This document shows, piece by piece, positions 1-33,789 of a DNA stretch of 64,000 nucleotides. The DNA comes from an uncultured Methylophaga sp. (lineage in GTDB: Bacteria > Pseudomonadota > Gammaproteobacteria > Nitrosococcales > Methylophagaceae), in NCBI GenBank assembly GCA_913055695.1, contig CAJXKF010000001.1, forward strand, positions 16,354 to 80,353. The letters are read 5' to 3'. Within the stretch, counting starts at the first letter, position 1, and each line of letters begins with the position of its first letter. Below the pieces are notes generated by a model that was not told where the DNA came from, ran no database searches, and saw only the letters and a program-made list of their open reading frames with translations. A program made the position numbers and the translations under genes.

Positions 1-1594
1 TCTCGTCGAGGGTGGTGAGTCCTCGCAAAACCTTTTCGCAGCCATCTTCCCACATAAACTTCAGCGCTTTTCCGGCATTGGACTCCAAGGTTTCCTCATC
101 AGCACCTTTGGCAACTAATCTAGCCAGCCTCTCGTTGAACCAGAGAGTTTCAAATAAACCAAGCCGTCCTCTGAACCCCTGCCCCTGACATACGGCACAC
201 CCAACAGCTTCAAAAATTTCAACTTCATCTTCAACACTGAGTAATACTTTTTCATCTTCTGTTGCTGGCCGGCTTTTGGCACAATGCCGGCATAAACGTC
301 TGACCAGGCGCTGTGCAATTACCGCAGTCATTGTGGACCCGATTAAAAATGGCTCACAACCAATATCCACCAGACGCGTGACCGCACTCACGGCATTGTT
401 GGTATGGAGCGTGGAAAACACGAGGTGACCGGTCATGGCTGCCTTAACTGCGACATCCGCTGTTTCTGAGTCACGGATCTCGCCCACCATCAAGACATCA
501 GGGTCATGCCGTAGCAGGGACCGTAATGCGTCTGCAAAACTGATCTTAGGACCGGTTTGAATCTGGGAAACACCTTCAATCACATATTCAATTGGGTTTT
601 CCACCGTCATGATATTGATATCTGGGTGATTGATTTCCTGTAACGCTGCACAAAGCGTTGTAGATTTACCACTCCCGGTCGGGCCGGTGAGAAGAATCAT
701 GCCATAGGGCTTTCTAATGGCTTGCTTGAATTCAACGAGATCACGCTCTAGAAACCCAATATCAGCCAATGTCAGGCTGTTACTCTCGCTCCCCAGCAAT
801 CTCATTGTAATTCGCTCACCAAGCCTGGTAGGAGCTGTCGCCACACGGATATTAAATTCCATATCGACTGGCGCAGATAACTGGTAGGAAAAACCACCAT
901 CCTGGGGCATACGCTGTTCAGAAATGTCCAGACCTGATAAGACTTTTACCCTGGATATTAATCCAGCAGCAACAGATTGGTCGGCATCCAGCGGGTAATC
1001 AGTCAATTTGCCATCCACCCTGAAACGGACCCGCAGCCCCTCCTCTTCGGTCATAAAATGCACATCCGAGGCACGACTCAAATAAGCATCTTTAAGAATT
1101 TGGTCGAGTAGGCTAACCAAATCGGTCTCAGCAGTACTAATTTCACTGGCTTGTGCCACCGCCGTGTTCGCAAGTACTTTTTTTACGGCCAGGCGGATTC
1201 TTTCAGGCTCGCTCATGGATACAGGCAGGGTGTGACCAATGAGTCTCTGTGCAGAATCTATAGAAACCCGATCAGTCGGATCACTGATAACAAGCATATC
1301 CTGGCCATCCAGCGTCATCACAAGCATGTGTTTTCGGTTGATCAAACTGGATGGTAGCTTTTTTGTGAGGACTGAGTTCAGTTCTGCTCGAGTGAGGTCA
1401 ATAAAGGCAACGCCCTGATCTTCTGCCAAAGCTCGGTGCATTGCCGATACAGGTAAGCGATAATGTGCCAGTAACTTTGACAGTAGTGGCACACGTTCTC
1501 TTCTGGCCACCAGACGCAGTTGTTCCACGGCCGATTCTTCAATCAGCCCTGTTTCAATACCCGCCCTAATGAGTTGTTCATCTCTGACAGCCAT
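1..1594 (-). CDS. GspE/PilB-family type IV filament assembly ATPase; the 3' end runs off the left edge of the window (531 codons visible)
   Basis: Absent from the ORF track because its stop lies outside the window. Hand translation from ATG 1594..1592 gives MAVRDEQLIRAGIETGLIEESAVEQL... It has Walker A LLTGPTGSGKSTT (about 661-700), HDPDVLMVGEIRD, and a CRHC...GCAVC tetracysteine cluster (about 190-300). AAGGTG lies just upstream of the ATG. Confidence 0.85.
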   Translation of the reverse strand, partial: MAVRDEQLIRAGIETGLIEESAVEQLRLVARRERVPLLSKLLAHYRLPVSAMHRALAEDQGVAFIDLTRAELNSVLTKKLPSSLINRKHMLVMTLDGQDMLVISDPTDRVSIDSAQRLIGHTLPVSMSEPERIRLAVKKVLANTAVAQASEISTAETDLVSLLDQILKDAYLSRASDVHFMTEEEGLRVRFRVDGKLTDYPLDADQSVAAGLISRVKVLSGLDISEQRMPQDGGFSYQLSAPVDMEFNIRVATAPTRLGERITMRLLGSESNSLTLADIGFLERDLVEFKQAIRKPYGMILLTGPTGSGKSTTLCAALQEINHPDINIMTVENPIEYVIEGVSQIQTGPKISFADALRSLLRHDPDVLMVGEIRDSETADVAVKAAMTGHLVFSTLHTNNAVSAVTRLVDIGCEPFLIGSTMTAVIAQRLVRRLCRHCAKSRPATEDEKVLLSVEDEVEIFEAVGCAVCQGQGFRGRLGLFETLWFNERLARLVAKGADEETLESNAGKALKFMWEDGCEKVLRGLTTLDE

Positions 1595-1603
1595 AATTCA
1601 CCT

Positions 1604-2257
1604 TTACAATGCTAAAATCATCTCAGTTTTGAGCATTTGTGCGCTGCCTCTGAAAGGTGAAATTTCAAGTTTATCGATGTTCAGTCTTATAACAGTGACC
1701 TGATAGGGAAGCTCATCGAGTCCATGAATAAAGCGGCGTAAAGCCAGATAACTGCCATCGACTTCAAGTCGCTGCAATGGTCGTTCAAACATCGACCCAG
1801 GTGACATTCTTGTTACCCAGCCGGCTGTGACTGGTGGAATAATCTCTTTTCCACCCTCAGTCTGTTTCTTATTCTCGATTGGCTGGGGACGCAAAGACTC
1901 ATTCACCCTGATTCTGATGCCACTATCCCGGGCTAACTCAGAGATCCTGACCTTCAGTTCCTGTGAGTCTAAAGGTGCCAGCTGTTGTTCAAGTTGCACT
2001 GCGCTGTCACGTATGACATCCAGCGCTTTTTGCTGATCCTCAAGCTCACGCTTGATTTCTTCAATTCCTTCCTGAGGCTCATTGGGGATTTCCATCTTGG
2101 ATAAGCGGACAATGGTGGCTTGTTTCTGCCGCTCAAGGCTATGAATTTGCTCAAGTCGAGGCTCAAATCTGAAAAAGCCGTAAGCTGCAATTATGATTAC
2201 TACTAAGATAATCCCTGCAAGCAGGCGCTCACGGTTATTCAACTGTTTCAATTTCAT
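1604..2257 (-). CDS. GspM/PilO-like bitopic inner-membrane assembly protein (217 aa)
   Basis: Short cytoplasmic N-terminus, one TM (LLAGIILVVIIIAAYGFF), then a coiled-coil and a roughly 100-aa periplasmic domain. ATGA start/stop overlap with the upstream gene, and a 9-nt gap to the ATPase gene. The call rests on architecture and position only. Confidence 0.55.
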   Translation of the reverse strand: MKLKQLNNRERLLAGIILVVIIIAAYGFFRFEPRLEQIHSLERQKQATIVRLSKMEIPNEPQEGIEEIKRELEDQQKALDVIRDSAVQLEQQLAPLDSQELKVRISELARDSGIRIRVNESLRPQPIENKKQTEGGKEIIPPVTAGWVTRMSPGSMFERPLQRLEVDGSYLALRRFIHGLDELPYQVTVIRLNIDKLEISPFRGSAQMLKTEMILAL

Positions 2258-4005
2258 GCTTGCTTACCCTCAGCTTCTGATTGGGATATCACACGCACTA
2301 AACTCATCGAAACGGAATAACCACCGAGGTTCATCGGCCCTGCTTTTTCTATTACCTGAATATCTCTGACTTCCATATCCCATGCAGCCACAGACAGCTT
2401 CATGTTCTGCACGAACTCCTGTGCGGCACTCTCGGTCAGCGCCCAGGCATCGATATTGAAATTGTCCGTTTCCACCACACCAGCTTTGTTGAGAGGGGCT
2501 GCTGCCGGTTGCACAGTCGCTCTGCGTCCCATTTCATCAACGCGGTTAACGATAATCTGTTCGTTGATATTGTTTTGTAAGACACCCAGAATGGCCTGCA
2601 CTAGGAGCGCTCTTTCCGGTAACTCCTGACCAAAAAAGGTCAGCCTCGCTTCCATTCTGCGCTGATTCTCTTTCTGTGTTTGCAGTTCTGCTTTCTTCGA
2701 CTCTATTGCTTCGCGTTGTTTTTTGATTCGTTCGACCGCTTGATCCAGTACTGCAGCACGCTCGTCAATTTCAGCTTTCTGACTGCTGATGGCAGCATGC
2801 TGGACTGCGATGGTCACTTCTGAAACAAGGATTAGAACCAGCACCGCCGCCATCATTGCCGCAGCTTGGGTTTCTATCCGATGCCAGGTTGGTGGCAATG
2901 GCCCCCCCGGTCTGACTAAACTAATTTTTTTAGCGCCCTTAAGGCCGAAGAAGAGCCTTCCAGCTGCGTACATACCCGGTGACAAGCCATCTCGCTCATC
3001 AAACATGACCAGATCCGGTTCAGTTGCCAGTGCTGAACTCAGACTGCTGCGCAAGTTTGGGATGCTATCCGGCGGTGCCGCCAGGGCAACACCCGGGTGC
3101 TGTGTATTCTCGGCATGATACACTTCAAGACAGGCATCCAGCATAGACGCACTGCGGTTCACATAGTGCTGAACCGATACAATTCGGTCACGCTTGAGAT
3201 GTGACGAAGTCGTAATAAATTCAGACGTTTCCAGTACCACCAAATGTTTTTCAGCGTGGTCAATCAGCGCCACACTATTGCCAGTCAGTGGCATCAGACC
3301 AGCGAGTTGCAACTTGTAGTCTTGACACAGTTCCTGCCACTTATCCATGACTGACTGATGTGTCGCCGTTGCCAGCCAATTCCAGACCCCGGGCGCATCG
3401 TCGACTTCACCTTGGGCAGACCAGCCACATTGAACTTCATCATCTTCACCCCGTAGCCAGTCCTGAACGACAAACAACGATTGCGACTGCTCACGTGTCA
3501 CATAACCCAACTCCAGTGCTATCTCACCGAATCGCTTGCCTCGCTCCCCCTTACCAGCCTCTTGCTTCTGCGCTTTCTGAGCTTGGTTGATTTCCTGCAC
3601 CTGCTCAGCAGACAGCATGCCGTGAGATTCCATCAGCTGCCCGAGTGTCCATTGCAACTGATGCTGCATCAACAGCGGCTCGACTTCCCAGCGAATGAGC
3701 TCATGCATCTGGTTTATGGGCTTCGGTTTCTTGGGTGACACTGGTAACTCAACCATCGCACTCATCACTGAGGGTGTCAGCACGATCACATGTTTACCGT
3801 TCCAACCCTGAGTTTTAAGGCTACTCAGGATTTCAGTGAAAGCCACAGCCGGGTCAATTTTCTGTGACTCAGCGGTGGCCAGCACCTGTAGTCTTTTACC
3901 TTTCCGATCAAAAACCGCTGCCTGCATGGATAAACCGGTCCACTCACACACCATGACTTTGTTTGGCTTAAGCGTGGTTAATACGTTTGTTAAATTATCC
4001 AGCAT
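2254..4005 (-). CDS. GspL-like / PilM-PilN fusion-like assembly protein (about 583 aa)
   Basis: The track ORF 2254..4020 starts at TTG; the first ATG is at 4005 (MLDNLTNVL...). It has an N-terminal cytoplasmic part of about 380 aa, a single TM (AAAMMAAVLVLILVSEVTIAV), a long coiled-coil (QKAEIDERAAVLDQAVERIKKQREAIESKKAELQTQKENQRRMEARL) and a C-terminal periplasmic domain. Confidence 0.55.
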   Translation of the reverse strand: MLDNLTNVLTTLKPNKVMVCEWTGLSMQAAVFDRKGKRLQVLATAESQKIDPAVAFTEILSSLKTQGWNGKHVIVLTPSVMSAMVELPVSPKKPKPINQMHELIRWEVEPLLMQHQLQWTLGQLMESHGMLSAEQVQEINQAQKAQKQEAGKGERGKRFGEIALELGYVTREQSQSLFVVQDWLRGEDDEVQCGWSAQGEVDDAPGVWNWLATATHQSVMDKWQELCQDYKLQLAGLMPLTGNSVALIDHAEKHLVVLETSEFITTSSHLKRDRIVSVQHYVNRSASMLDACLEVYHAENTQHPGVALAAPPDSIPNLRSSLSSALATEPDLVMFDERDGLSPGMYAAGRLFFGLKGAKKISLVRPGGPLPPTWHRIETQAAAMMAAVLVLILVSEVTIAVQHAAISSQKAEIDERAAVLDQAVERIKKQREAIESKKAELQTQKENQRRMEARLTFFGQELPERALLVQAILGVLQNNINEQIIVNRVDEMGRRATVQPAAAPLNKAGVVETDNFNIDAWALTESAAQEFVQNMKLSVAAWDMEVRDIQVIEKAGPMNLGGYSVSMSLVRVISQSEAEGKQA

Positions 4006-4140
4006 GGTTGAAAGTTCCAAAACTCCGGCTTGTTGTTACGTTTGGGCTAAAATCAAGCAGACTTAAACTTGCCCAAAATAGTCTGCAGCCACTACGCAGG
4101 GTGACTTTTAAGCTGGTTGCAGGCTGCATAATTAACATCA

Positions 4141-5187
4141 TTATTTGATGTTCCATCTAAAAGGACCAAGGGTATATCTGGGAAGCACATTGATGCTGTA
4201 TGGGGTAGCTGAAGGGTCATCAGTCATAGTGCCGCATAAACCAGTATCTGAAGTTATGTGACCCTCACAATTTATTCTTAGTTGATATTGGCCGGCCGGT
4301 ATGGCCTTATCAAAATCAGCATCAACTTCCAGAAAATCACCTGGCTGAATCTGAACCGGTGAAGCAGCCTCGCTCAACTTAAAATCTTTGGACTCGAGCA
4401 GATCACTTTTTGTGAGTTGTACAGACCATTCAAGATCATCAATGCCGGAAAGGACATTATTGCCAACATTAAAAAAACGTATTTTCAACGGTTGCAACAA
4501 CTGCCAGTCATCGGCAACTACCAATGCCGGGATATCACCCATGGGGTCGAAGTCTGGAATATTATCCGAGATGTTAATGGTGTCAGGCTCAGGACCCTGG
4601 CTTTGCAACCTCAGGGTGTTAGCATTAACCGCACTTTGCGGCGCACTGAGCAATACTTCACTCTTGCCGATACTGAGCGTCAGGTTCCAACCAAAATTAG
4701 CACCCGTAGCATCGCCATTACCATAACCATCTCTGAATCTTTTCACACCATCACTGTCGTGGTTAGTCTGAATATAGGGACCACGCCAACCGCTCCCGAT
4801 ACTGGTATCAGAGTCAATTGCCCATTTGCTGAGAAAAAATTCAGGCTCACTCGGGTCACAGGGAGAGCGATAGTCTCCGGAACCAATCGCAGTCTCCTCT
4901 CCCAGCGTTAAAAGCTCCTCTATACAGAGCGGTAGTCTGCCAACATCCGTTGCAAAACCATTGATAATGGGCCGATCATTTAAGGTTTGATTACTGTCAC
5001 CCACCACAGCCTGACGGATTAGTGCAATCCGCCGCTGTGTTTCCTCATATTGAGCCTGGCTTTCGACGTTATCGGTGAAAAGCAGACCGGCTGATGCCAG
5101 TAGTCCAATCAGAAATAAAACCAGAACAAGTTCCAGCAGGGTGAAACCAGCTTGATAACGTTGATTGAAAAGACGCATAGTCATCAT
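4141..5187 (-). CDS. Oversized GspG-like prepilin/pseudopilin (about 348 aa)
   Basis: Class III signal ...NQRYQAG|FTLLELVLVLFLIGLL with Glu+5. GspG-type signature SGWRGPYIQT ... FRDGYGNG. The track ORF starts at GTG 5208; the first ATG after the upstream stop (5193-5195) is at 5187, so the start is uncertain by up to 10 codons. Confidence 0.75.
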   Translation of the reverse strand: MMTMRLFNQRYQAGFTLLELVLVLFLIGLLASAGLLFTDNVESQAQYEETQRRIALIRQAVVGDSNQTLNDRPIINGFATDVGRLPLCIEELLTLGEETAIGSGDYRSPCDPSEPEFFLSKWAIDSDTSIGSGWRGPYIQTNHDSDGVKRFRDGYGNGDATGANFGWNLTLSIGKSEVLLSAPQSAVNANTLRLQSQGPEPDTINISDNIPDFDPMGDIPALVVADDWQLLQPLKIRFFNVGNNVLSGIDDLEWSVQLTKSDLLESKDFKLSEAASPVQIQPGDFLEVDADFDKAIPAGQYQLRINCEGHITSDTGLCGTMTDDPSATPYSINVLPRYTLGPFRWNIK

Positions 5188-5192
5188 TTCAA

Positions 5193-6053
5193 TCAACGCA
5201 ACAGGCACTGAACAAGGTCATCGCCCAGCGCTATGCAGGGATCGCCGCCAGGTAATGTGTAATTGCTGGTTGCACTTTCGAATACACCATTGGGCCCGCT
5301 GCTTGCTATCCGTGCAATATCACCAGCAAGTGGGTAGTCTGCTGCTACGGTAATATCCTCGGCTGGTAAACAGTTGTATACATCACCGGACATGTCGTAA
5401 CCACCCGATCCATCATCAGCACAGCGGTAACGCTGGCTGTAGGCCAGTTCGGGATCGAGCAGCTTATAAGGGTTACCCCAACCGTCTGTTAATGCTTCCT
5501 GGCTGATGTAGGGTCCGTTCCAGCCACTCTGGGTATCCTGACTCCAGAGTAAATCACTGTTAGCCGCCTCCAGGGCAAAGGGAAATTGATGCAGCATCGA
5601 CAGTGCATTATCAGACTGAATAACGTCCCGCCCCAGTGTATTTGTCAGACTATCACTGCACCATTGTGCATAGGTAAGAAGGGAGTTTGGTTCAGATGGA
5701 TTGGTTGGATTGTCACTGGCAAATTCCATCCGCTCCATATCCGAAGCAAAGTCAGCCAGTGATATAAAGGGGGTAAAGCGTCTGTTTTCCGGTGAGCTGA
5801 CATAGACCAGACAGGGTAATTCCCGGTTATCGCGGCGGAACTGCAAAAGCGCCTTTTGCAATTCAACCATTTCGATACGGGTGATGTTGTCGCGGGCTTG
5901 GTCTTCATTTCCATCAAAAGCGGCTATGGCTGCCACCGCCAGCACCGCCAGCAGGCTGATCACCAGTAAAAGCTCGATCAGTGTAAAACCATTTTGTTGT
6001 GACTGGCTTTGCTGAGTTTTGAATTGATGTCGGACAAACAATAAAAACCGCAT
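5193..6053 (-). CDS. Oversized GspG-like prepilin/pseudopilin (286 aa)
   Basis: ATG start. 22-aa basic leader MRFLLFVRHQFKTQQSQSQQNG|FTLIELLLVISLLAVL. GspG-type signature SGWNGPYISQ ... DGWGNPYKLL ... IASSGPNG, interrupted by long insertions. Six Cys. Confidence 0.75.
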   Translation of the reverse strand: MRFLLFVRHQFKTQQSQSQQNGFTLIELLLVISLLAVLAVAAIAAFDGNEDQARDNITRIEMVELQKALLQFRRDNRELPCLVYVSSPENRRFTPFISLADFASDMERMEFASDNPTNPSEPNSLLTYAQWCSDSLTNTLGRDVIQSDNALSMLHQFPFALEAANSDLLWSQDTQSGWNGPYISQEALTDGWGNPYKLLDPELAYSQRYRCADDGSGGYDMSGDVYNCLPAEDITVAADYPLAGDIARIASSGPNGVFESATSNYTLPGGDPCIALGDDLVQCLLR

Positions 6054-6184
6054 TTACTTGTTCCCGATAAGTAACTATCAACTGATTTCCAGATTTCCCT
6101 GTCCGGAAGCGCTCTAACTTCAAGCCAAACTGGCTGTGATAAGAGCCGGCTTATCACAACAAGCTTAACTGTGAGAGACAGAAT

Positions 6185-6207
6185 GAGGGCGGACTTTGCC
6201 CGCCCTC
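6185..6207 (-). terminator. GC-rich hairpin just downstream of the putative major pilin gene (possible attenuator or partial terminator)
   Basis: Arms GAGGGCGG (6185-6192) and CCGCCCTC (6200-6207) pair perfectly around a 7-nt loop, 27 nt after the stop at 6234. No strong U-tract follows on the minus strand. Confidence 0.4.
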
Positions 6208-6233
6208 TATCATGTCACTTAACTAAACCTTGT

Positions 6234-7361
6234 TTAGTCTTGTGTGGCTGCAGCTACGTTGGCATCGAGGGTGTTACCTTCGGTGTCAATGAAACCAAGC
6301 AGGCGTGGACGTGGCAGGAAGTTTGATGCGACAAGATTTTGAACCGTATCACCATCTGCTGCCGCACCTTTTTCACCTGATGCCAAAAGGAAAAGGCCAA
6401 CGTATCGACCATAGTTTTCTGCCGGATTAACTTCAGCACTGCTGTAGGTTGGTGCCTGGATAACGCCCGCTGCAGAATTAACCGTGGATTGCGCTGCATC
6501 ACCACCAAAGCCTAATGCTAGAACAAGGTTACAGCGCTCGGTGCTGAGGGCATCGTTAATTGAATTGATGACCAGAGGGTCAGCGCCACCAACGCCACCG
6601 GCCCAAGTATTGGAAATATCTTGACCTCCAACAGTGCAGCTCATCGGCTGGCCGGCGTTTCCGTTTGCAGCACCACTCAGATCTTCATCATCTTCAAGAG
6701 CTACTGAACCCAGAATAGAGATGTACTGAGGTACACCGTTTGCCAGGTCACCAGCACCAAAGTCACCATATTCCGTTTCTACCGCACCATTACCAGATGC
6801 ATCTGGCGGGTTTGTGCCCTCGTTGTGCAGACGGTTGGGCTCGACCACACCGTTTGAACCGATGCCATTACCAAAGACATGTTGGAGTTCGTCCATACCA
6901 AAATTGTCTTCGAAATAGTCTTCTAAGTCGAAGCCAAGGTTGGTACTCAAAGCTGCTGCGATATCAAAACTACCCAAGATGGTTTGTAAATCCTCATTAA
7001 TGGGAGTGGTGCCAGTGCTCATCAGTGGAGCATTTGCATTCACAGGGTCAGCGAGGTTGTCCCACTGGTTGGGGTAGGCTTGTGACACTGCACGATAAGC
7101 ACGTACACCCTGATCCAGTACAGCGACGGTATTAGCCGCTTTGGAGGCCTGTGCTTTCTCACCAGCACCATCAAAAGCCACCAGCGCACCTGTCGCCAGA
7201 ATAGCAAGCAAAGTAATAACGACCAGCAGTTCCAGCAGGGTGAAACCTTTTTCTTTTGACTGAAGTTTCTTGCCTTTGGCACGCAGCTTCTCGTCTTTGA
7301 TGATTGACAGGTCCGCATGACGGAACTTGGCAATCGCTGATTTCATTTGTCTAATGTTCAT
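6234..7361 (-). CDS. Large prepilin (375 aa) with a 39-aa leader peptide; candidate major filament subunit
   Basis: ATG at 7361 with GAGAGAG upstream. Leader MNIRQMKSAIAKFRHADLSIIKDEKLRAKGKKLQSKEKG|FTLLELLVVITLLAILATGALVAF (Gly-1, Phe+1, Glu+5). The mature part is acidic and rich in Gly/Ala/Asn/Asp, with only two Cys (PMSC...TERC). It is followed by a hairpin and a 180-nt gap. Confidence 0.75.
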   Translation of the reverse strand: MNIRQMKSAIAKFRHADLSIIKDEKLRAKGKKLQSKEKGFTLLELLVVITLLAILATGALVAFDGAGEKAQASKAANTVAVLDQGVRAYRAVSQAYPNQWDNLADPVNANAPLMSTGTTPINEDLQTILGSFDIAAALSTNLGFDLEDYFEDNFGMDELQHVFGNGIGSNGVVEPNRLHNEGTNPPDASGNGAVETEYGDFGAGDLANGVPQYISILGSVALEDDEDLSGAANGNAGQPMSCTVGGQDISNTWAGGVGGADPLVINSINDALSTERCNLVLALGFGGDAAQSTVNSAAGVIQAPTYSSAEVNPAENYGRYVGLFLLASGEKGAAADGDTVQNLVASNFLPRPRLLGFIDTEGNTLDANVAAATQD

Positions 7362-7521
7362 TATGATCTCTCTCGATTTAATGCCTCAGCTGCCCCCAGC
7401 AGCCTTTTGGTCATTGGGGTTTTGTCGTTAGCTTGCAGATGTGCCCCCTGCACACTCTGTGATTTTTATTCCCTGGCGTGGTGAGGCGTTCCCACTCGGC
7501 ATTGCCCAAATATGAATAAAA

Positions 7522-7782
7522 TTATTTCAAACCCGGCTTATTTACCGCTGCCATTTCTGGCGCATCTACCACAAAACGGTATTGTTTACCGCAGTGCAGA
7601 ATGACCTCCTTCTGCCGTCTTTTGAGGATTTTCACCTCAACCCGGATATCACCAAAGCCATCATGTGCAAGCACATCATCGACGAGCTCCAGCAGTTTTG
7701 CTTTGACTGGTTGGCAAGAAGTCTCGATGGTGTTGTCTGCATTCATATTGTGAGTTGTTCCGGTTAATCTCGGTGAAGTCAT
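7522..7782 (-). CDS. Small hypothetical protein (86 aa, or 74 aa from the internal MNADN start) upstream of the pilin genes
   Basis: ORF only. No convincing SD at either ATG. The core HDGFGDIRVEVKILKRRQKEVILHCGKQYRFVV loosely recalls small YezD/DUF2292-type proteins; that comparison is from memory and unverified. Confidence 0.4.
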   Translation of the reverse strand: MTSPRLTGTTHNMNADNTIETSCQPVKAKLLELVDDVLAHDGFGDIRVEVKILKRRQKEVILHCGKQYRFVVDAPEMAAVNKPGLK

Positions 7783-7806
7783 ACTAGACCAGACCTGAAA
7801 ACTTTC

Positions 7807-7824
7807 CCTATAGGAAGAATTCCT
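7807..7824. promoter_or_regulatory. 18-bp motif CCTATAGGAAGAATTCCT containing a GGAA-N3-TTCC dyad; left copy of an inverted pair
   Basis: Lies 25-42 nt upstream of the 7782 start, in an AT-rich 250-bp intergenic region. It matches the reverse complement of 9954..9971 at 17 of 18 positions. Confidence 0.45.
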
Positions 7825-8034
7825 AAAATTAAGTTTGAGTTAATGTAAATTCTAGAAAAAAACAAATTATTTATATTTATCAGCAGTTTATGAAGTTAAA
7901 GTTTTCACCCTCCTCTGTGTTGACATCCGCTTAATCATTAATTTTGGTTATTTTTTGAATCAGTTCCTTGTCATGTGGCCGTTTTTTTGAAAATGCCGGT
8001 GGCAGCATTATCAGGGCGCTGCTGACCTAATCAA

Positions 8035-9795
8035 TCAGCGGTAGTCTTCAATTCCCAGATAATCATCCTGATATTTCTGGAGTTGAATAATGAGAGGGAA
8101 ATAGCGCTTATCACGCTCTGTAATCAAAGAGCGCGTCATGCTTTTCCAGTAACTGTCCATATGCTCTGGGTAATGGCGTATGGCTTTAGCCAGCTGCTCT
8201 GAAGCGGCTTCTGTCTGTCCCGACTTCAATAGCAGATCGACCTGCGAGAAAACTTCGGTCTCGCCCGGCAGGTAACGCATTAATTGCGTATTCATAGCAA
8301 GCTTGTCTTTAACGACCTCTTCGCTATTGGGTAAAGCTCGAATAATAATCACGTCGAAGTAAGGAGCAAAAAGCGATTGATCGCGGCGTTGAGCAAGTTC
8401 ATAGAGAAGACTGACTGCCTCTTGACCTTTAATATCTCCTCGGCGGCCATCCGTATACCAGCCCTCGAGTTCATGATATTGCCTGATGGTGCTCGTTATC
8501 GTGGCTGTGGAAAAAATGAGTACTGCTGCGGCGATAAGAGGGCCTGTTTTGAGGTTGGCAGTGATTGCCCGCTGCTCTCCCATGCCTGCCAGTAGCGCTG
8601 CAATACCCAAAAAGTAAGCGTACCAAAGCGGATATTCCAACAGGCTGTGAATGCCCAAAACAGCCAGCGAGGCTAAAATCCACCAGCGTTCCGGTGATAA
8701 GGCTGTTTTTCTCTGAGCGAATAACCACAACGCGACAATGATTATGAATACCGCACTACCAATAACTCCGGTCTCAGCCATAAGCTGAAACACGATATTG
8801 TGTGCGTTGTCAGCATAACCACTCAATCCGGGATAAGCTTCAGTTAATTGAAAGTTCTGCCAGCCAAATTGTCCCCAGCCAGCCCCCAATAAAGGATTCT
8901 CAGTGAATATTTGCCAGGCCTGCTGTAGTAACAACAGTCTTGTCGATTCTCTATCCGCAGTTTCAACCAATCTTTGAATCGGTGAGTGGATATTGTCCCC
9001 CATTAGCATTGGCAAGAACCAATTCAGAAGCAGATAAAAGGGAATAAGGATCAGTAACCAGTAACCTTTTCTTAATCTCAACTCACCTCGAGCCGCGATC
9101 AACCAGCCTGCAAATGCAATCAATAGCACATAGAGGGTTGCCATCCGCTGCCCCGTCAAAACAAGGGCCACGATGAACAGTAATGATGCCGTAATCCAAC
9201 TTGCTGTGTTGATTCTCTCACTGAGCAGAAGATAGCTTGCTGAAACCAGTGCAAGCGCAAAATAAGTGGCAGCATGATTTACTTGAGCAATGTTCGCAGC
9301 GAAGCCACCCTTAATATGGGGCAGGATGAATTCAAAGTCTGTCCAACCCAGAATTTGAACAACCACAATCGAGAAGGAGATATACCCCCCAAGAAGCATC
9401 GCGGAAGCCAGGAAAGGAGCAAGCTTCGAATGAGGTAGATTTGCCCCTACAACAGCCATCATTGAGGCCCAGCATAAGACAAGCACAGTCATAAAATGTT
9501 GCTGCCAGTATGTGTGCATATCAAGAGAGAACTGCACGCCTAACAACACTGCTAAGCACAGTGGCAACAGGGCTACTAAAGGCAATTTGATATGCTGCCC
9601 ATGTTGTTTTGTCAGGAAAACAATCACCGCCAGGCTACCCAATGCAGTCGCTGCAATTTGAGGATAGAAACTGGTTAGCGGTGTTTTGTGATGCCAGACC
9701 AGAAAGGGCACTAGGGACATTAGCGCCAGGAATCCTATAGCGAGACGCTCAACATTAGCTGAAAAAGAAAATGTAACGACCTTTTGAGTCTTCAC
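8035..9795 (-). CDS. O-antigen ligase (Wzy_C) / PglL-type O-oligosaccharyltransferase-like polytopic membrane protein with a soluble TPR-like C-terminal region (586 aa)
   Basis: More than 10 predicted TM segments. Wzy_C-type loop motif YADNAHNIVFQLMAETGVIGS. The soluble C-terminal region of about 150 aa matches the size and layout of pilin-glycosylation ligases. It lies directly upstream of the pilin operon. Confidence 0.7.
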   Translation of the reverse strand: MKTQKVVTFSFSANVERLAIGFLALMSLVPFLVWHHKTPLTSFYPQIAATALGSLAVIVFLTKQHGQHIKLPLVALLPLCLAVLLGVQFSLDMHTYWQQHFMTVLVLCWASMMAVVGANLPHSKLAPFLASAMLLGGYISFSIVVVQILGWTDFEFILPHIKGGFAANIAQVNHAATYFALALVSASYLLLSERINTASWITASLLFIVALVLTGQRMATLYVLLIAFAGWLIAARGELRLRKGYWLLILIPFYLLLNWFLPMLMGDNIHSPIQRLVETADRESTRLLLLQQAWQIFTENPLLGAGWGQFGWQNFQLTEAYPGLSGYADNAHNIVFQLMAETGVIGSAVFIIIVALWLFAQRKTALSPERWWILASLAVLGIHSLLEYPLWYAYFLGIAALLAGMGEQRAITANLKTGPLIAAAVLIFSTATITSTIRQYHELEGWYTDGRRGDIKGQEAVSLLYELAQRRDQSLFAPYFDVIIIRALPNSEEVVKDKLAMNTQLMRYLPGETEVFSQVDLLLKSGQTEAASEQLAKAIRHYPEHMDSYWKSMTRSLITERDKRYFPLIIQLQKYQDDYLGIEDYR

Positions 9796-9953
9796 TATTC
9801 ATCCTAGAGTGTTCAAAAAAGACTCGTGATAGTAGGTCAGATAGCCATGATCAGCACTAGGAAAAAATCCTGTTTTGCTGTTTATTCAATTTCAAAGTTC
9901 AGAAGATGAATGCAATACGGTCACCTATGCGCTATTGGCATGAACCGGATTTC

Positions 9954-9971
9954 AGGAATTATTCCTATAGG
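9954..9971. promoter_or_regulatory. 18-bp motif AGGAATTATTCCTATAGG; right, inverted copy of the 7807..7824 motif
   Basis: Its reverse complement CCTATAGGAATAATTCCT differs from 7807..7824 at one base. It lies about 160 nt upstream of the 9795 start and overlaps a candidate plus-strand -10 element. Confidence 0.45.
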
Positions 9972-10107
9972 CCTTGAGGAGTTGGGGGGAAATAATGTCA
10001 GTGAGGTTACTTTAAATCTCGCATTACTCGTCTGTCATGATGACAGCCCCTTAGAGTTCGGCTTTTGACTCTCACTGTGGGTGGATTTCCACCCACAGTT
10101 ATTTTTT
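9969..10107 (+). ncRNA. Candidate small RNA of about 140 nt (hypothetical), convergent with the end of the suf operon
   Basis: Sigma70-like TTGGCA (9935-9940), a 16-nt spacer and AATTAT (9957-9962). Internal hairpin CTGTC-ATGAT-GACAG (10032-10046). A canonical plus-strand intrinsic terminator closes it. No credible plus-strand ORF is present. Boundaries are inferred, not observed. Confidence 0.3.
10075..10107 (+). terminator. Intrinsic terminator whose U-tract is on the plus strand
   Basis: Perfect 10-bp stem CTGTGGGTGG / CCACCCACAG (10075-10084 and 10089-10098) with a 4-nt loop, followed by TTATTTTTT. On the minus strand the hairpin is preceded by A-rich sequence and followed by non-U sequence. 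Confidence 0.6.
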
Positions 10108-10437
10108 CTAGAACATGCCCAGTTGTAATTGCGCAGCTTCGCTCATCATGTCCTTGGTCCATTGCGGTTCCCAGACCAGTTCGACATGGGCTTTTTTAAC
10201 ACCGGGGACTGACATCACACGTGATTCGACATCGCCCGGGAAAGACTGGGCGACCGGACAGCCCGGAGCAGTCAGCGTCATATCAATATGGACGTTGCCT
10301 GAGGTGCTGATTTCGATGTTGTAGATAAGCCCGAGTTCATAGATGTTAACCGGGATTTCCGGATCGTAGATGGTTTTAAGCACCTCAATCACATCTTCTT
10401 TGAGCTGTTCCGGGCTGACTTGATATTGATCATTCAT
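10108..10437 (-). CDS. DUF59/MIP18-family Fe-S assembly protein (SufT-like)
   Basis: 109 aa with IYDPEIPVNIYELGLIY and TLTAPGCP motifs. Last gene of the suf operon. Confidence 0.85.
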   Translation of the reverse strand: MNDQYQVSPEQLKEDVIEVLKTIYDPEIPVNIYELGLIYNIEISTSGNVHIDMTLTAPGCPVAQSFPGDVESRVMSVPGVKKAHVELVWEPQWTKDMMSEAAQLQLGMF

Positions 10438-10450
10438 AAATCTGCCCTGC

Positions 10451-10897
10451 TTACTCTGTGGTTATCGAAACGTCATGATCGCTATCCATCGCGGCATGCA
10501 CGGTGTGCCAGGATAAAGTGGCGCATTTCACACGAGCTGGAAACTCCTTCACGCCGGCCAGCACTTCCAGTTTGCCGGACAGTTCACCACCACCCGCTTC
10601 ACCGGTGAGGGCTTTATGCACATTGTCATAGAGCTTTTCGGCTTCTTCCATGGTTTTGCCTTTCAAAATCTCAGTCATCAGTGAGGCTGAAGCCACTGAA
10701 ATCGCACAGCCACTGCCCTGGAAACTGACATCTTCAATCACGCCATCTTTGAGTTTGGCGTAGACCACCAGCGCGTCGCCACACAGCGGATTATTACCAT
10801 GTGCCATATGGTTGGCATCGGTGATCTCACGGAAATTACGCGGATTCTTTTTGTGATCCATGATCACTTGTTGATAGAGATCTCTTAAATCACTCAT
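10451..10897 (-). CDS. sufU: SufU-type (NifU/IscU-like) sulfur-transfer and scaffold protein
   Basis: Strong resemblance to Bacillus SufU as I recall it: LYQQVIMDHKKNPRNF, NPLCGD, GSGCAIS, FPARVKCATLSW. Confidence 0.9.
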   Translation of the reverse strand: MSDLRDLYQQVIMDHKKNPRNFREITDANHMAHGNNPLCGDALVVYAKLKDGVIEDVSFQGSGCAISVASASLMTEILKGKTMEEAEKLYDNVHKALTGEAGGGELSGKLEVLAGVKEFPARVKCATLSWHTVHAAMDSDHDVSITTE

Positions 10898-12156
10898 CAG
10901 GCAAACAACTCCTGTGTGGTTTTGATGGCATTAACCAGCGCATCAATTTCCTGCTCGGTGTTATAGAACGCGAAGGAAGCCCGCGCCGTCGCCGCGATGC
11001 CATAGAACTCCATCACCGGTTGAGCACAGTGATGGCCGGCACGAATCGCGACACCCTGCTGGTCGAAAATGGTACCGACATCGTGCGGATGCACATCTTC
11101 AATCATGAAAGACAGCACGCTGGCTTTGTTTTTGGCGGTACCGATAATACGAACACCATCAATGGCTTCCAGTTTCGCTGTGGCGACTTCCAGCAGGTGA
11201 TGTTCATAGGCTGCCAGCTTATCGATGCCGATAGCCTGCATATAATCAATCGCTGCGCCCAGTCCGACGGCACCGGCAATGTGCGGTGTGCCTGCTTCAA
11301 ATTTGTATGGCAGCGTGTTGTATTCGGTATGACTAAAGCTGACCGACAGGATCATATCGCCCCCGCCCTGCCATGGCGGCATCGCTTCCAGCAATGCCTG
11401 TTTGCCATAGAGCGCGCCGATACCGGTGGGTGCAAACATTTTGTGACCGGAGAAGACATAAAAGTCACAGTCCAGATCCTGCACATCGACAGCAAGATGC
11501 GGCACTGCTTGAGCGCCGTCTACCAGCACCGGAATCGATTTGGCTTTGGCCAGTCCGATCATTTCCTTAATCGGATTGACAGTACCCAGTGCATTCGACA
11601 CATGACCAATCGCCAGGATTTTGGTGCGTTCGTTCAGCAGGCTGTCGAAGTCACTCAAATCCAGTTCACCGGCTTCGGTCATAGGAATGACTTTCAGCTT
11701 GGCTCCAGTCTGTTCACAGACCATCTGCCACGGCACGATATTGGCGTGATGCTCGATATGACTGATTAGAATCTCATCACCCGGTTTAATCTGCGGGCGC
11801 ACAAAACTCTGTGCCACCAGGTTAATAGCTTCGGTGGCACCGCGGACAAAGACGATTTCCTTGTCCGATTTGGCATTCAGAAAACCACGGACTTTATCGC
11901 GGGCGCCTTCGTAAGCATCGGTCGCGCGCTGACTCAGACGATGCACACCGCGGTGCACATTGGCATTATCCAGGCGATAATAAGCATCAACCGCTTCAAT
12001 CACCTGAACCGGTTTCTGGCTGCTGGCTGCATTATCGAGATAAACCAGCGGATTGCCGTTCACTTCCTGATTCAGAATCGGAAAGTCACGTCTGACCGCT
12101 TCAACATCAAAGTCGGTTTCAGGAAACGGCACAGCTTGTAATTCGGTTTGTGTCAT
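10897..12156 (-). CDS. sufS: Cysteine desulfurase SufS (class II)
   Basis: 419 aa. PLP-lysine context FSGHKMFAPTGIG and active-site RAGHHCAQP. Overlaps the sufU start. Confidence 0.95.
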   Translation of the reverse strand: MTQTELQAVPFPETDFDVEAVRRDFPILNQEVNGNPLVYLDNAASSQKPVQVIEAVDAYYRLDNANVHRGVHRLSQRATDAYEGARDKVRGFLNAKSDKEIVFVRGATEAINLVAQSFVRPQIKPGDEILISHIEHHANIVPWQMVCEQTGAKLKVIPMTEAGELDLSDFDSLLNERTKILAIGHVSNALGTVNPIKEMIGLAKAKSIPVLVDGAQAVPHLAVDVQDLDCDFYVFSGHKMFAPTGIGALYGKQALLEAMPPWQGGGDMILSVSFSHTEYNTLPYKFEAGTPHIAGAVGLGAAIDYMQAIGIDKLAAYEHHLLEVATAKLEAIDGVRIIGTAKNKASVLSFMIEDVHPHDVGTIFDQQGVAIRAGHHCAQPVMEFYGIAATARASFAFYNTEQEIDALVNAIKTTQELFA

Positions 12157-33771: not shown

Positions 33772-33789
33772 AATTATCCAAACAATCTA

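What the first reader, a model, noticed from the sequence alone, without database searches (positions are those of the whole stretch)
1..7782. Non-canonical type IV filament operon: three oversized prepilins followed by GspL-like, GspM-like and GspE-like genes
Six or seven co-directional, tightly packed minus-strand genes form one operon. Packing is shown by the ATGA overlap at 2254-2257, the 9-nt gap at 1595-1603, and a start within a few nt of the preceding stop at 5187-5195.

All three pilin-like ORFs carry the class III signal G|FTL(L/I)EL with Glu+5. They are 286-375 aa long, two to three times the size of a normal GspG or PilA.

Two of them (4141..5187 and 5193..6053) keep the GspG-type W(R/N)GPYI ... 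DG(W/Y)GN signature, split by long insertions. The third (6234..7361) lacks it.

The roughly 583-aa protein has GspL (PilM+PilN fusion) architecture and the 217-aa protein has GspM/PilO architecture.

The gene order pilins, then L, then M, then E does not match the gspC-M, pilMNOPQ/pilBCD or msh layouts as I know them. No secretin, platform protein or prepilin peptidase is in the window, and the operon runs off the left edge.

This is the best candidate in the window for an undescribed surface filament or secretion machine.
Basis: partly seen in the sequence, partly recalled or inferred. Interest (0 to 1): 0.75.

Follow-up and report, generated by a model that had tools for sequence, protein, structure and literature searches.

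The report
Unclassified type IV pilus gene cluster
A Methylophaga chromosome carries a complete, conserved but unnamed type IV pilus-like machine with unusually large, fast-evolving pilins, probably sugar-decorated; it looks like an undescribed subtype of a well-known family, not a new kind of machine.

Summary
Window 1-9795 (minus strand) holds a tightly packed type IV filament (T4F) operon in a Methylophaga genome. Just past the left edge the contig adds the platform protein, a 146-aa periplasmic protein, a secretin and a two-component regulator.

The 583-aa protein folds as PilM fused by one transmembrane helix and a coiled coil to a small periplasmic domain. It also carries a four-helix insert related to the c-di-GMP-binding part of MshE. 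It has no Pfam or NCBIfam name.

No core protein reaches the NCBIfam cut-off for T2SS, type IVa pilus or MSHA.

The gene order is kept in more than 25 loci, from Methylophaga, methanotrophs and Colwellia to a planctomycete. Some relatives carry a PilT-family gene and a prepilin peptidase inside the operon.

The pilin head regions and the adjacent oligosaccharyltransferase gene form a roughly 5.9-kb hypervariable cassette. The first pilin gene ends in a conserved hairpin, and its predicted head matches no solved structure.

The best reading is a surface pilus of an unclassified T4aP-like subtype, not a secretion pseudopilus. This is a new variant of a known kind. c-di-GMP binding by the insert is doubtful in this genome.

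The parts
1..1594 (-). Assembly ATPase of the PilB/GspE family (547 aa in full; the last 16 codons lie beyond the window edge). Its N-terminal domain is a degenerate MshEN domain.
   Evidence: Pfam T2SSE E = 5e-120, MshEN E = 1.5e-5. GspE model 470 bits against a cut-off of 630, PilB model 461 against 676. Equally distant from solved GspE and PilB structures. No c-di-GMP 24-mer in any of 15 orthologues.
1604..2257 (-). GspM/PilO-like bitopic inner-membrane protein (217 aa): N-terminal transmembrane helix, predicted coiled coil, C-terminal globular domain.
   Evidence: T2SSM E = 0.0035 and PilO E = 0.11 for this protein. Among 17 orthologues, 10 hit T2SSM (best 4e-5) and 5 hit PilO (best 7e-4), all below the curated cut-offs. 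The gene always follows the L-like gene.
2254..4005 (-). PilM-PilN-type fusion protein ('L-like', 583 aa): actin-like cytoplasmic domain, transmembrane helix at about aa 377-400, coiled coil to aa 479, small beta-alpha-beta periplasmic domain at aa 484-574.
   Evidence: No Pfam or NCBIfam family. AlphaFold2 mean pLDDT 80. Foldseek best hits are PilM 5EOU (E = 3e-12) and 2YCH; GspL cytoplasmic domains score E ~ 1e-6. The family has 528 representative clusters, nearly all 550-600 aa.
3463..3648 (-). Four-helix insert (aa 120-181) inside the PilM-like domain, related to the c-di-GMP-binding N-subdomain of MshE (MshEN_N). Motif II (RFGEIALELGYV...Q) is nearly intact; motif I (TLGQLMESHGML...Q) is degenerate; the spacer is 14 residues instead of 5.
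   Evidence: NF053729 hit in 17 of 17 orthologues (best 1.5e-7, below cut-off). 5HTL is the top PDB sequence hit (E = 0.044). hhalign probability 94.8% with both motifs in register. A tandem pair under the published relaxed motif occurs in only 3 of 137 representatives and 0 of 42 close relatives.
4141..5187 (-). Prepilin 3 (345-355 aa depending on start), with a GspG-type WRGPYI...DGYGN motif. It is the most size-variable pilin (about 310-535 aa in relatives). Proposed minor or tip pilin.
   Evidence: N_methyl E = 6e-6. Orthologues of 337-535 aa carry no other Pfam module. Head region is non-homologous at DNA level between Methylophaga strains.
5193..6053 (-). Prepilin 2 (286 aa), a GspG-like pilin with long insertions. 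Proposed minor pilin.
   Evidence: N_methyl E = 1.2e-7 and T2SSG E = 1.6e-8. GspG equivalog 45 bits against a cut-off of 88.85.
6185..6207 (-). GC-rich stem-loop 27 nt after the stop of prepilin 1. Proposed attenuating terminator.
   Evidence: 10-bp stem with 8 G-C pairs. A stable hairpin lies in the same gap in 17 of 20 loci at -20 kcal/mol or below, against 11.7% of random same-length segments.
6234..7361 (-). Prepilin 1 (375 aa; 38-aa conserved leader, mature about 337 aa). Proposed major pilin with a large head domain and a conserved Cys242-Cys277 pair.
   Evidence: N_methyl E = 4e-9. Family of 422 clusters, known only by generic names. Conserved leader, Cys pair and ALGFGGDAA / NPxxxYxRY motifs. 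AlphaFold2 pLDDT 87, pTM 0.79. No Foldseek match at E <= 0.001 (best 0.8) in PDB or BFVD apart from the N-terminal helix.
7522..7746 (-). Small conserved cytoplasmic protein 's74' (74 aa; core HDGFGDIRVEVKILKRRQKEVILHCGKQYRFVVD). Function unknown.
   Evidence: No Pfam, NCBIfam or PDB match. 59-73% identical to the window copy across gammaproteobacterial loci where the L-like protein is only 36-40% identical. 2,386 clusters, all 'hypothetical'. Absent from L030-L032.
7809..7824 (-). Palindromic 16-mer AGGAATTCTTCCTATA upstream of s74. Candidate operator for the linked LuxR-type response regulator.
   Evidence: Two exact copies in the window against 0.12 expected. Exact matches upstream of s74 in the 11 non-window loci that match the pattern, near variants in four more, and found only in loci that also carry the HisKA_3 kinase and LuxR regulator pair.
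8035..9795 (-). PglL/TfpO-type O-oligosaccharyltransferase candidate (586 aa), part of the hypervariable cassette.
   Evidence: Wzy_C E = 6e-18, Wzy_C_2 E = 5e-24, PglL_A 21.8 bits against a cut-off of 25. Full-length match to PDB 9RMK 'Oligosaccharyltransferase', E = 7e-27. Only 35-53% identical between strains whose suf genes are 76-98% identical. Also adjacent to pilin 1 in L031 and L032.
9954..9969 (+). Second, inverted copy of the palindromic 16-mer (AGGAATTATTCCTATA), upstream of the oligosaccharyltransferase gene.
   Evidence: Present in the Methylophaga loci that carry the Wzy_C gene.

Best explanation
The locus encodes a complete type IV filament machine of an unclassified, T4aP-like subtype that builds a surface pilus.

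Proposed working:
- A prepilin peptidase encoded elsewhere cuts the three prepilins at G|F.
- The PilB/GspE-family hexameric ATPase docks on the GspF/PilC platform and on the cytoplasmic PilM-like domain of the 583-aa fusion protein.
- That protein pairs in the periplasm with the 217-aa GspM/PilO-like protein. The pair connects through the 146-aa periplasmic protein, which is PilP-like only by weak evidence, to the secretin.
- The 375-aa protein is the abundant shaft subunit. Its gene comes first and ends in an attenuating hairpin.
- The two GspG-like large pilins prime or cap the fibre.
- The adjacent PglL-type enzyme O-glycosylates pilin.
- Expression is set by the linked sensor kinase (LapD/MoxY-type periplasmic domain) and its LuxR-type regulator, acting at a conserved palindrome upstream of s74 and of the glycosylation gene.

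Shown here: gene content, order and conservation; the PilM-like fold; the pilin signals; the hypervariable cassette; the conserved hairpin and palindrome.

Inferred: surface exposure, which pilin is major, glycosylation, regulator binding, and retraction by a PilT-family ATPase encoded elsewhere.
For: - Core T4F parts are present: pilins, ATPase, platform, secretin.
- The L-like protein has a PilM fold. The M-like protein gives sub-threshold T2SSM/PilO hits in 10 and 5 of 17 orthologues.
- The order s74 - three pilins - L - M - E - F - p146 - secretin is kept in 20 genome loci and in more distant loci L027-L033.
- Distant relatives carry a PilT/PilU-family ATPase that passes the TIGR01420 cut-off (411-432 bits against 319), and one also carries a prepilin peptidase, inside the operon. 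This points to retractile pili.
- The window itself has a PilT/PilU-family gene at 32653..33771 (448 bits).
- Between Methylophaga strains the machinery is 77-90% identical in protein, but the pilins are 39-50% and the oligosaccharyltransferase 35-39%. DNA homology survives only at pilin N-termini and s74 across 3968..9853. Pilin 1 is 61-70% identical in strains whose L-like protein is only 42-58% identical, so alleles are exchanged. This pattern is known for surface-exposed pilins, not pseudopilins.
- The oligosaccharyltransferase matches PDB 9RMK at E = 7e-27.
- A hairpin follows pilin 1 in 17 of 20 loci.
Against: - No filament, processing or glycan has been observed; everything rests on sequence.
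- Several traits are T2SS-like: the GspG-type motif and T2SSG hit in pilin 2, the fused L-type protein, T2SSM as the best hit for the M-like protein, an ATPase that scores marginally higher on GspE than on PilB, and no PilT gene inside this operon.
- There are only three pilins and all keep Glu5. The canonical four-member priming set (GspHIJK or FimU-PilVWX, including one Glu5-less member) is not recognisable.
- The PilP-like call for p146 rests on 3 of 11 hits at E >= 0.086.
- The choice of major pilin rests on gene position and the hairpin alone.
Confidence: 0.7

Rival explanations
1. A divergent type II secretion system. The three proteins would form a periplasmic pseudopilus that pushes folded substrates through the secretin, with the L- and M-like proteins acting as GspL and GspM.
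For: - T2SSG hit and W(N/R)GPYI...DG(W/Y)GN motifs in two pilins.
- PilM+PilN fusion as in GspL; T2SSM is the best family for the 217-aa protein.
- GspE and GspD give the top NCBIfam scores for the ATPase and secretin; for the platform PilC (312.9 bits) narrowly outscores GspF (310.7).
- NCBI names the pilins 'type II secretion system protein'.
- No PilT gene in this operon.
Against: - All Gsp equivalog cut-offs are missed by wide margins: GspD 151/351, GspE 470/630, GspF 311/424, GspG 45/89.
- There is no GspC, and no GspH/I/J/K equivalog hit.
- The L-like fold is nearer PilM (E = 3e-12) than GspL (about 1e-6).
- Pilin heads are hypervariable and are exchanged together with an oligosaccharyltransferase. 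This is not expected for a periplasmic pseudopilus.
- Relatives carry PilT-family ATPases in the operon.
- No candidate substrate gene is linked across the loci.
Confidence: 0.15
2. A member of the MSHA (mannose-sensitive haemagglutinin) pilus class: a single-locus adhesive pilus of marine Gammaproteobacteria controlled by c-di-GMP.
For: - Single locus with no prepilin peptidase, as reported for MSH loci (PMC6668835, read).
- MshEN Pfam domain in the ATPase.
- Marine gammaproteobacterial host.
- An MshEN-related module within the machine.
Against: - The MshL equivalog scores 92 bits against a cut-off of 250.
- No MshM-type ATPase or TPR protein appears in any locus, although mshM is mandatory in the published MSH model.
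- The ATPase lacks both c-di-GMP motifs.
- The gene order and the pilin families differ.
Confidence: 0.05
3. A DNA-uptake (competence) pilus, or another specialised function such as cell-cell aggregation, with the same machine but a role other than general adhesion.
For: T4aP-like systems with PilT often serve DNA uptake (general knowledge). Nothing in this data set points to it specifically.
Against: No comEA, comEC or dprA genes are linked in any locus. The large glycosylated, hypervariable pilins resemble adhesive or phage-exposed pili more than short competence pseudopili.
Confidence: 0.05

Closest known systems
Type IVa pilus machinery (PilA; PilB/PilT/PilC/PilD; PilMNOPQ) of Pseudomonas, Myxococcus and Thermus
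   Same: - Class III signal-peptide pilins with Glu5, a PilB-family ATPase, a PilC/GspF platform and a secretin.
- A PilM-fold cytoplasmic scaffold (best Foldseek hits 5EOU and 2YCH) and a PilO-like partner.
- PilT-family ATPases in related operons.
- A major pilin gene followed by a terminator.
   Different: - One locus instead of several.
- PilM and PilN are fused, and a helical insert lies within the N-terminal half of the PilM-like domain.
- The ATPase and platform genes sit between the PilO-like and PilP-like genes.
- The pilins are 286-375 aa, against about 150 aa.
- Only two accessory pilins, both retaining Glu5.
- All T4aP equivalog or subfamily cut-offs are missed: PilB 461/676, PilQ 116/284, PilC 313/700.
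Type II secretion system (GspC-M, GspD)
   Same: An L-type fusion of a PilM-like and a PilN-like domain, an M-like partner, a GspG-type motif in two pilins, and an ATPase as close to GspE as to PilB.
   Different: No GspC and no recognisable GspH/I/J/K. Hypervariable, probably glycosylated pilins. PilT-family genes in relatives. All Gsp cut-offs are missed.
MSHA pilus of Vibrio and Shewanella, and the MshEN c-di-GMP receptor domain of MshE (PDB 5HTL)
   Same: - Single locus without a peptidase.
- A four-helix module related to MshEN_N: hhalign probability 94.8%, NF053729 in 17 of 17 orthologues.
   Different: - The module sits in the PilM-like scaffold, not in the ATPase, and the ATPase's own motifs are gone.
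- Motif I is degenerate and the spacer is 14 residues, not 5.
- MshM and MshN are absent, and MshL does not match at equivalog level.
Pilin glycosylation islands: Pseudomonas aeruginosa group I pilA-tfpO and Neisseria/Acinetobacter PglL/TfpO systems
   Same: A Wzy_C-family oligosaccharyltransferase gene next to the major pilin gene. Pilin and enzyme vary together between strains as an exchangeable cassette.
   Different: The enzyme gene lies upstream of the pilin, separated from it by the small s74 gene. The acceptor site is unknown, and the pilin ends in ...ATQD rather than Ser. No glycan has been shown.

Membership tests
Type IV filament superfamily | Pilins with a class III signal peptide (G|F...E5) and a hydrophobic N-terminal helix | tested here: met
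   Three proteins have G|FTL(L/I)EL; N_methyl E = 6e-6 to 4e-9.
Type IV filament superfamily | PilB/GspE-family ATPase, GspF/PilC platform and (in diderms) a secretin in one system | tested here: met
   T2SSE E = 1e-120, T2SSF E = 4e-55, Secretin E = 3e-36 on the window and its own contig L001.
Type IV filament superfamily | Prepilin peptidase (PilD/GspO) | tested here: not met
   None in the locus or in the 64-kb window. It may be encoded elsewhere, as is reported for MSH loci. The relative L028 has one in the operon.
Type II secretion system | GspD, GspE, GspF and GspG at equivalog level | tested here: not met
   151/351, 470/630, 311/424 and 45/89 bits (score/cut-off).
Type II secretion system | GspC and the minor pseudopilins GspH, I, J and K | tested here: not met
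   No GspC-like gene is present. The GspH/I/J models match only the N-terminal helix and stay below cut-off, and there is no Glu5-less GspK-like pilin.
Type II secretion system | GspL and GspM | tested here: inconclusive
   The L-type architecture is supported by fold, but PilM scores better than GspL and there is no T2SSL Pfam hit. T2SSM hits are sub-threshold, in 10 of 17 orthologues.
Type IVa pilus | PilB, PilC and PilQ at equivalog or subfamily level | tested here: not met
   461/676, 313/700 and 116/284 bits.
Type IVa pilus | PilM-PilN-PilO-PilP alignment subcomplex | tested here: inconclusive
   The PilM fold is met (E = 3e-12), but it is fused to the PilN-like part. PilO hits (5 of 17, best 7e-4) and PilP hits (3 of 11, best 0.086) are sub-threshold.
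Type IVa pilus | PilT-family retraction ATPase | tested here: inconclusive
   Absent from this operon. A PilT/PilU-family gene lies at 32653..33771 (448 bits against 319), and relatives L028-L030 carry one inside the operon. No functional link has been shown.
MSHA pilus | MshL secretin at equivalog level and the mandatory mshM gene | tested here: not met
   MshL 92/250 bits. No MshM-like AAA gene in any locus. The mandatory gene list comes from PMC6668835.
MSHA pilus | MshE ATPase with two intact c-di-GMP 24-residue motifs | tested here: not met
   No motif, even a loose one, in 15 orthologous ATPases.
MshEN c-di-GMP receptor module | Two 24-residue motifs [RKPN]hGxxhhxx[GAS]hhxxxxhxxxhxx[QNKRYWST] joined by a short spacer to form a four-helix bundle (PMC5013675) | tested here: inconclusive
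   - Homology is supported: hhalign 94.8%, NF053729 in 17 of 17 orthologues at sub-threshold level, four predicted helices.
- In the window protein, motif I has three mismatches to the relaxed motif and motif II has one; the spacer is 14 residues.
- One or more motifs occur in 35 of 42 close relatives and 57 of 137 representatives, but a tandem pair occurs in only 3 of 137.
MshEN c-di-GMP receptor module | Binds c-di-GMP | not testable with these tools
   This needs ITC or DRaCALA on the purified cytoplasmic domain.
PglL/TfpO O-oligosaccharyltransferases | Wzy_C domain, similarity to a characterised oligosaccharyltransferase, and linkage to its pilin substrate | tested here: met
   Wzy_C E = 6e-18, Wzy_C_2 E = 5e-24; PDB 9RMK 'Oligosaccharyltransferase' E = 7e-27 over the full length; adjacent to pilin 1 and co-varying with it. 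PglL_A is sub-threshold (21.8/25). Enzyme activity was not tested.

The most novel reading that the evidence does not exclude
This would be a previously unrecognised type IV pilus subtype in which second-messenger control has moved from the motor to the scaffold.

- The PilM-PilN fusion protein would itself bind c-di-GMP through its embedded MshEN-type four-helix module and gate docking of an ATPase that has lost its own binding motifs.
- The fibre would be built from a roughly 35-kDa O-glycosylated major pilin whose head has a fold with no solved relative.
- The small s74 protein would be a dedicated, so far unknown, assembly or regulatory factor.
Probability: 0.25. Interest if true: 0.8.

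Novelty: new variant of a known kind. Interest (0 to 1): 0.6.

Why it matters
- Type IV filaments are sorted into a handful of classes, and hundreds of 'generic' systems remain unassigned (PMC6668835). This locus defines one such group concretely. It gives a fixed gene order, a marker protein with no family name (528 representative clusters), a large pilin family with an unmatched head fold, and an unnamed small protein family (2,386 clusters).
- The system is common in marine and freshwater methylotrophs and methanotrophs, including cultured strains such as Methylophaga thiooxydans DMS010 and Methylobacter marinus A45, so it can be tested.
- If the pilus mediates attachment or aggregation, it bears on how methane- and methanol-consuming communities assemble.
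- If the scaffold insert binds c-di-GMP in any member, it would be a new site of second-messenger control in these machines.

Tried and rejected
- **Rfam:** a scan of 1..10500 at E <= 1 found no RNA family, so there is no c-di-GMP riboswitch ahead of the pilin genes.
- **Plasmids:** tblastn of the L-like protein against 72,556 plasmids found nothing.
- **PDB profile searches:** profiles of s74, p146 and the M-like protein gave nothing meaningful.
- **Pfam:** s74 gave only a weak, implausible Imm64 hit. My recollection that it resembles DUF2292/YezD was not supported.
- **Third pilins:** the very large versions (up to 535 aa) carry no recognisable adhesin or enzyme module.
- **Leader and s74:** I tested whether the long 38-aa leader of pilin 1 goes together with s74 and rejected it. 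A Methylotuvimicrobium locus has s74 with a 15-aa leader.
- **Inverted 16-mers:** I considered an invertible, phase-variable segment between the two copies. I set it aside because no recombinase is linked, the core is itself palindromic, and single copies occur in loci without the enzyme gene.
- **Kinase and MxaY:** a possible link between the LapD/MoxY-type kinase and the methanotroph lanthanide-switch kinase MxaY could not be followed, because the paper (PMC5018670) could not be retrieved.
- **Literature:** searches for Methylophaga pili, PilM-PilN fusions, MshEN with PilM or GspL, new T4F types and DUF3438 found no description of this system.

Full report
**1. What is in the sequence**

The minus strand of window 1..9795 carries nine co-directional genes:
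- 8035..9795: a 586-aa Wzy_C-family protein.
- 7522..7746: a 74-aa protein, here called s74.
- 6234..7361, 5193..6053 and 4141..5187: prepilins of 375, 286 and about 348 aa.
- 2254..4005: a 583-aa protein.
- 1604..2257: a 217-aa protein.
- 1..1594: a PilB/GspE-family ATPase that runs off the edge.

The ATGA overlap is at 2257..2254. The 9-nt gap at 1595..1603 contains a ribosome-binding site. The third pilin starts within a few nucleotides of the stop of the second. All three pilins carry G|FTL(L/I)EL with Glu5 and hit the N-terminal methylation model. The GspG-type W(N/R)GPYI...DG(W/Y)GN motif is in two of them, and Pfam T2SSG is significant only for the 286-aa protein (E = 1.6e-8).

**2. The operon is complete beyond the window edge**

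The 217-aa protein occurs on 18 public contigs. One of them, L001, a 316-kb JGI metagenome contig, is 100% identical to the window over 12,257 nt. On that contig the ATPase (547 aa) is followed by:
- a GspF/PilC platform protein (404 aa, T2SSF E = 4e-55);
- a 146-aa secreted protein;
- a 744-aa secretin (E = 3e-36) with a C-terminal extension that matches DUF3438/TIGR03749;
- a sensor kinase with a LapD/MoxY periplasmic domain, HAMP and HisKA_3;
- a LuxR-type response regulator.

The missing platform and secretin are therefore an edge effect. Only a prepilin peptidase is truly absent from the locus. Homologues identify the organism as Methylophaga.

**3. The system fits no named class**

None of the core proteins reaches a curated NCBIfam cut-off.

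| Protein | Model | Score / cut-off (bits) |
|---|---|---|
| ATPase | GspE | 470 / 630 |
| ATPase | PilB | 461 / 676 |
| Platform | GspF | 311 / 424 |
| Platform | PilC | 313 / 700 |
| Secretin | GspD | 151 / 351 |
| Secretin | PilQ | 116 / 284 |
| Secretin | MshL | 92 / 250 |
| Pilin 2 | GspG | 45 / 89 |

Against solved structures the ATPase is equally distant from GspE (342 bits) and PilB/PilF (333 bits). There is no GspC, no recognisable GspH/I/J/K, and no MshM or MshN. I could not run the published MacSyFinder models. Denise et al. report 884 'generic' unassigned systems with their final models (PMC6668835), so unassigned systems as such are not rare.

**4. The 583-aa protein**

It has no Pfam or NCBIfam family, and sources call it 'hypothetical'. 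An AlphaFold2 model built from 19 homologues (pLDDT 80) shows four parts:
- an actin-like domain at aa 1 to about 360;
- one transmembrane helix at about aa 377-400;
- a long coiled coil to aa 479;
- a small beta-alpha-beta domain at aa 484-574.

Foldseek against the PDB gives P. aeruginosa PilM (5EOU, E = 3e-12) and T. thermophilus PilM (2YCH) first, then FtsA. GspL cytoplasmic domains (5TKW, 4PHT) score about 1e-6. The PilN/GspL-like nature of the periplasmic domain is inferred from topology only.

A profile search of 1.84 billion representative proteins finds 528 relatives (210 at E <= 1e-30), nearly all 550-600 aa. This is a distinct family of moderate size.

**5. An MshEN-related insert in the scaffold**

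Residues 120-181 form four helices in the model. Evidence that they relate to the c-di-GMP-binding part of MshE:
- All 17 orthologous inserts hit NCBIfam NF053729, the MshE-related c-di-GMP motif (best E = 1.5e-7, below the 38-bit cut-off).
- The MshE N-domain 5HTL is the top PDB sequence hit (E = 0.044).
- hhalign aligns both 24-residue motifs in register with V. cholerae MshE residues 7-61 at 94.8% probability, with a 13-residue longer spacer.
- None of 15 orthologous ATPases keeps even a loose motif.

The evidence against binding is also clear. By the relaxed motif published in PMC5013675, the window protein fails motif I at three positions (including T for R at position 1) and motif II at one. 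One or more motifs are present in 35 of 42 close relatives and 57 of 137 representatives, against 2 of 2,740 shuffles. A full tandem pair occurs in only 3 of 137 representatives. PMC11731258 reports that only two of the three PilF domains bind c-di-GMP; the domain with one conserved and one degenerate motif (GSPII-A) is not among the binders.

I conclude that the insert is homologous to MshEN_N. Binding of c-di-GMP is doubtful in Methylophaga (about 0.25) and more plausible in the few members with both motifs.

**6. The other small components**

- The 217-aa protein has an N-terminal transmembrane helix and a predicted coiled coil. Ten of 17 orthologues hit T2SSM (best 4e-5) and five hit PilO (best 7e-4), all sub-threshold.
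- The 146-aa protein has a signal peptide and a conserved C-terminal half. Three of 11 orthologues give weak PilP hits (best 0.086). Its position just before the secretin fits a PilP or GspC-HR role, but this is weakly supported.
- s74 has no match anywhere. Yet it is 59-73% identical to the window copy across gammaproteobacterial loci where the L-like protein is 36-40% identical. Its family has 2,386 clusters. It is absent from the Methylotenera locus, the planctomycete locus and L031.

**7. Conservation of the layout**

A scan of 185,579 species genomes found 20 loci: Methylophaga, Methylobacter marinus A45, Colwellia, an Alteromonadales isolate, and unclassified gammaproteobacterial MAGs. 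The complete loci have the order s74 - pilin (about 330-380 aa) - pilin (about 240-310) - pilin (about 310-535) - L - M - ATPase - platform - p146 - secretin; in Methylobacter marinus L019 the only secretin lies upstream. The kinase/regulator pair lies downstream or divergently upstream.

More distant family members keep the core order:
- L028: s68 - three pilins (with an extra 146-aa ORF between the second and third) - L - M - PilT-like - PilB-like - platform - prepilin peptidase.
- L029: L - M - PilT-like - ATPase - platform.
- L030: Gemmatales, Planctomycetota.
- L031: Wzy_C - pilins - L - M - E - F - 155 aa - secretin.
- L032: Methylotenera.
- L033: Methylotuvimicrobium.

The embedded PilT-like proteins pass the PilT/PilU subfamily cut-off (411-432 bits against 319).

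**8. Pilus or pseudopilus?**

Four lines favour a surface pilus.
- **Hypervariability.** Against Methylophaga sp. MES2, the suf genes are 98-99% identical and the machinery 77-90%. Pilins 1-3 are 40, 50 and 41% identical and the Wzy_C protein 35%. At DNA level, homology is continuous over 1..3967 and from 9854 onward. Between these it survives only at the pilin N-termini and s74. Pilin 1 and Wzy_C alleles closer to the window's (61-70% and 49-53%) occur in strains whose L-like protein is only 42-58% identical, so the cassette is exchanged.
- **A linked oligosaccharyltransferase.** The Wzy_C protein matches the solved 'Oligosaccharyltransferase' 9RMK over its full length (E = 7e-27). It recurs next to pilin 1 in L031 and L032.
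- **A conserved hairpin after pilin 1.** In the window it lies at 6207..6185. A hairpin of -20 kcal/mol or below is present in 17 of 20 loci, against 11.7% of random same-length segments. The sequences differ but the position is kept. This is the arrangement expected for an abundantly made major subunit.
- **PilT-family genes** in related operons (section 7).

Against this stand the T2SS-like traits listed under the rival explanations. I put the pilus reading at about 0.7.

**9. The major pilin candidate**

The 375-aa family has 422 clusters and is known only by generic names. It is found in Methylophaga, Methylotuvimicrobium, Methylomarinum, Methylotenera and Methylophilus; s74 relatives additionally name Methylomonas. 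The search is biased toward close relatives, so the methylotroph enrichment is an impression, not a test.

Most members keep a 38-aa conserved leader, a Cys242-Cys277 pair and several invariant motifs. The model is confident (pLDDT 87, pTM 0.79). Apart from the N-terminal helix, it has no Foldseek match at E <= 0.001 (best 0.8) in the PDB or in BFVD.

**10. Regulation**

A palindromic 16-mer, AGGAATTNTTCCTATA, lies 60-75 nt upstream of s74 (7809..7824). A second, inverted copy lies upstream of the oligosaccharyltransferase gene (9954..9969). Two exact copies compare with 0.12 expected by chance. The element sits upstream of s74 in the 11 non-window loci with exact matches, with near variants in four more, and only in loci that carry the HisKA_3 kinase and LuxR regulator pair. 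I propose that it is the regulator's operator. No riboswitch is present.

**11. Verdict**

The locus is a complete, conserved, unnamed T4aP-like system: a new variant of a known kind. Its distinctive features are:
- a single-locus order;
- a PilM-PilN fusion with an MshEN-related insert;
- large hypervariable pilins linked to an oligosaccharyltransferase;
- an unexplained, highly conserved small protein.

No experiment supports any of the functional steps.

Noticed in passing
window 32653..35469 (-): An orphan pair of type IV filament ATPases is wedged between accA (31640..32596) and dnaE (35479..38967). One is a 559-aa PilB/GspE-like protein with a strong MshEN domain (E = 1e-22) but no c-di-GMP 24-mer. 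The other is a 372-aa PilT/PilU-family protein (448 bits against a cut-off of 319). No pilin, platform or secretin gene lies next to them. The PilT-family gene could serve the pilus at 1..9795, since related operons carry such a gene internally.
   Followed up: partly
window 7522..7746 (-); also L007-L028 and L033: The 74-aa protein s74 (core HDGFGDIRVEVKILKRRQKEVILHCGKQYRFVVD) is conserved out of proportion to the L-like scaffold protein (59-73% vs 36-40% identity). It has 2,386 clusters in public data, all 'hypothetical', and matches no Pfam, NCBIfam or PDB entry. It always lies just upstream of the first pilin gene.
   Followed up: partly
window 7809..7824 (-) and 9954..9969 (+): Two inverted exact copies of the palindromic 16-mer AGGAATTNTTCCTATA flank the oligosaccharyltransferase gene. 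One copy is conserved upstream of s74 in all 11 non-window loci that match the pattern. The element is found only where the HisKA_3 kinase and LuxR regulator pair is linked.
   Followed up: partly
L001:13976-16210 (secretin, aa 599-735), just left of the window: The secretin carries a C-terminal extension of about 140 aa. It matches DUF3438 (E = 7e-13) and TIGR03749, a family of integrating-conjugative-element proteins (E = 5e-18). This is an unusual addition to a secretin, and I found no literature on it.
   Followed up: partly
window 6234..7361 (-), codons 1-39: The first prepilin has a 38-aa leader (MNIxQMK..FRxADxSxIKDEKLRAKAQKLQxKQKG|F) that is conserved across genera and predicted to be helical. 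Type IVa leaders are far shorter. Methylotenera and Methylotuvimicrobium versions have short leaders.
   Followed up: partly
L001:16217-18194, and the same pair in L007-L025: The linked sensor kinase has a LapD/MoxY-type periplasmic domain (E = 3e-6). This domain family is named after, among others, a methanol-oxidation regulator. The system also recurs in methylotrophs and methanotrophs: Methylophaga, Methylobacter, Methylomonas, Methylomarinum, Methylotuvimicrobium, Methylotenera and Methylophilus. Whether this reflects biology or search bias was not tested.
   Followed up: no
window 3968..9853: A cassette of about 5.9 kb (three pilin head regions plus the oligosaccharyltransferase gene) has no DNA homology to otherwise 75-90% identical Methylophaga relatives, except at pilin N-termini and s74. 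Closer alleles occur in more distant strains, which indicates exchange by recombination.
   Followed up: yes
window 10074..10099: A strong bidirectional terminator-like hairpin (11-bp stem, T-run) lies between the suf operon (sufS, iscU-like and FeS-assembly genes, 10108..12156) and the pilus region. It marks the upstream boundary of the unit.
   Followed up: no
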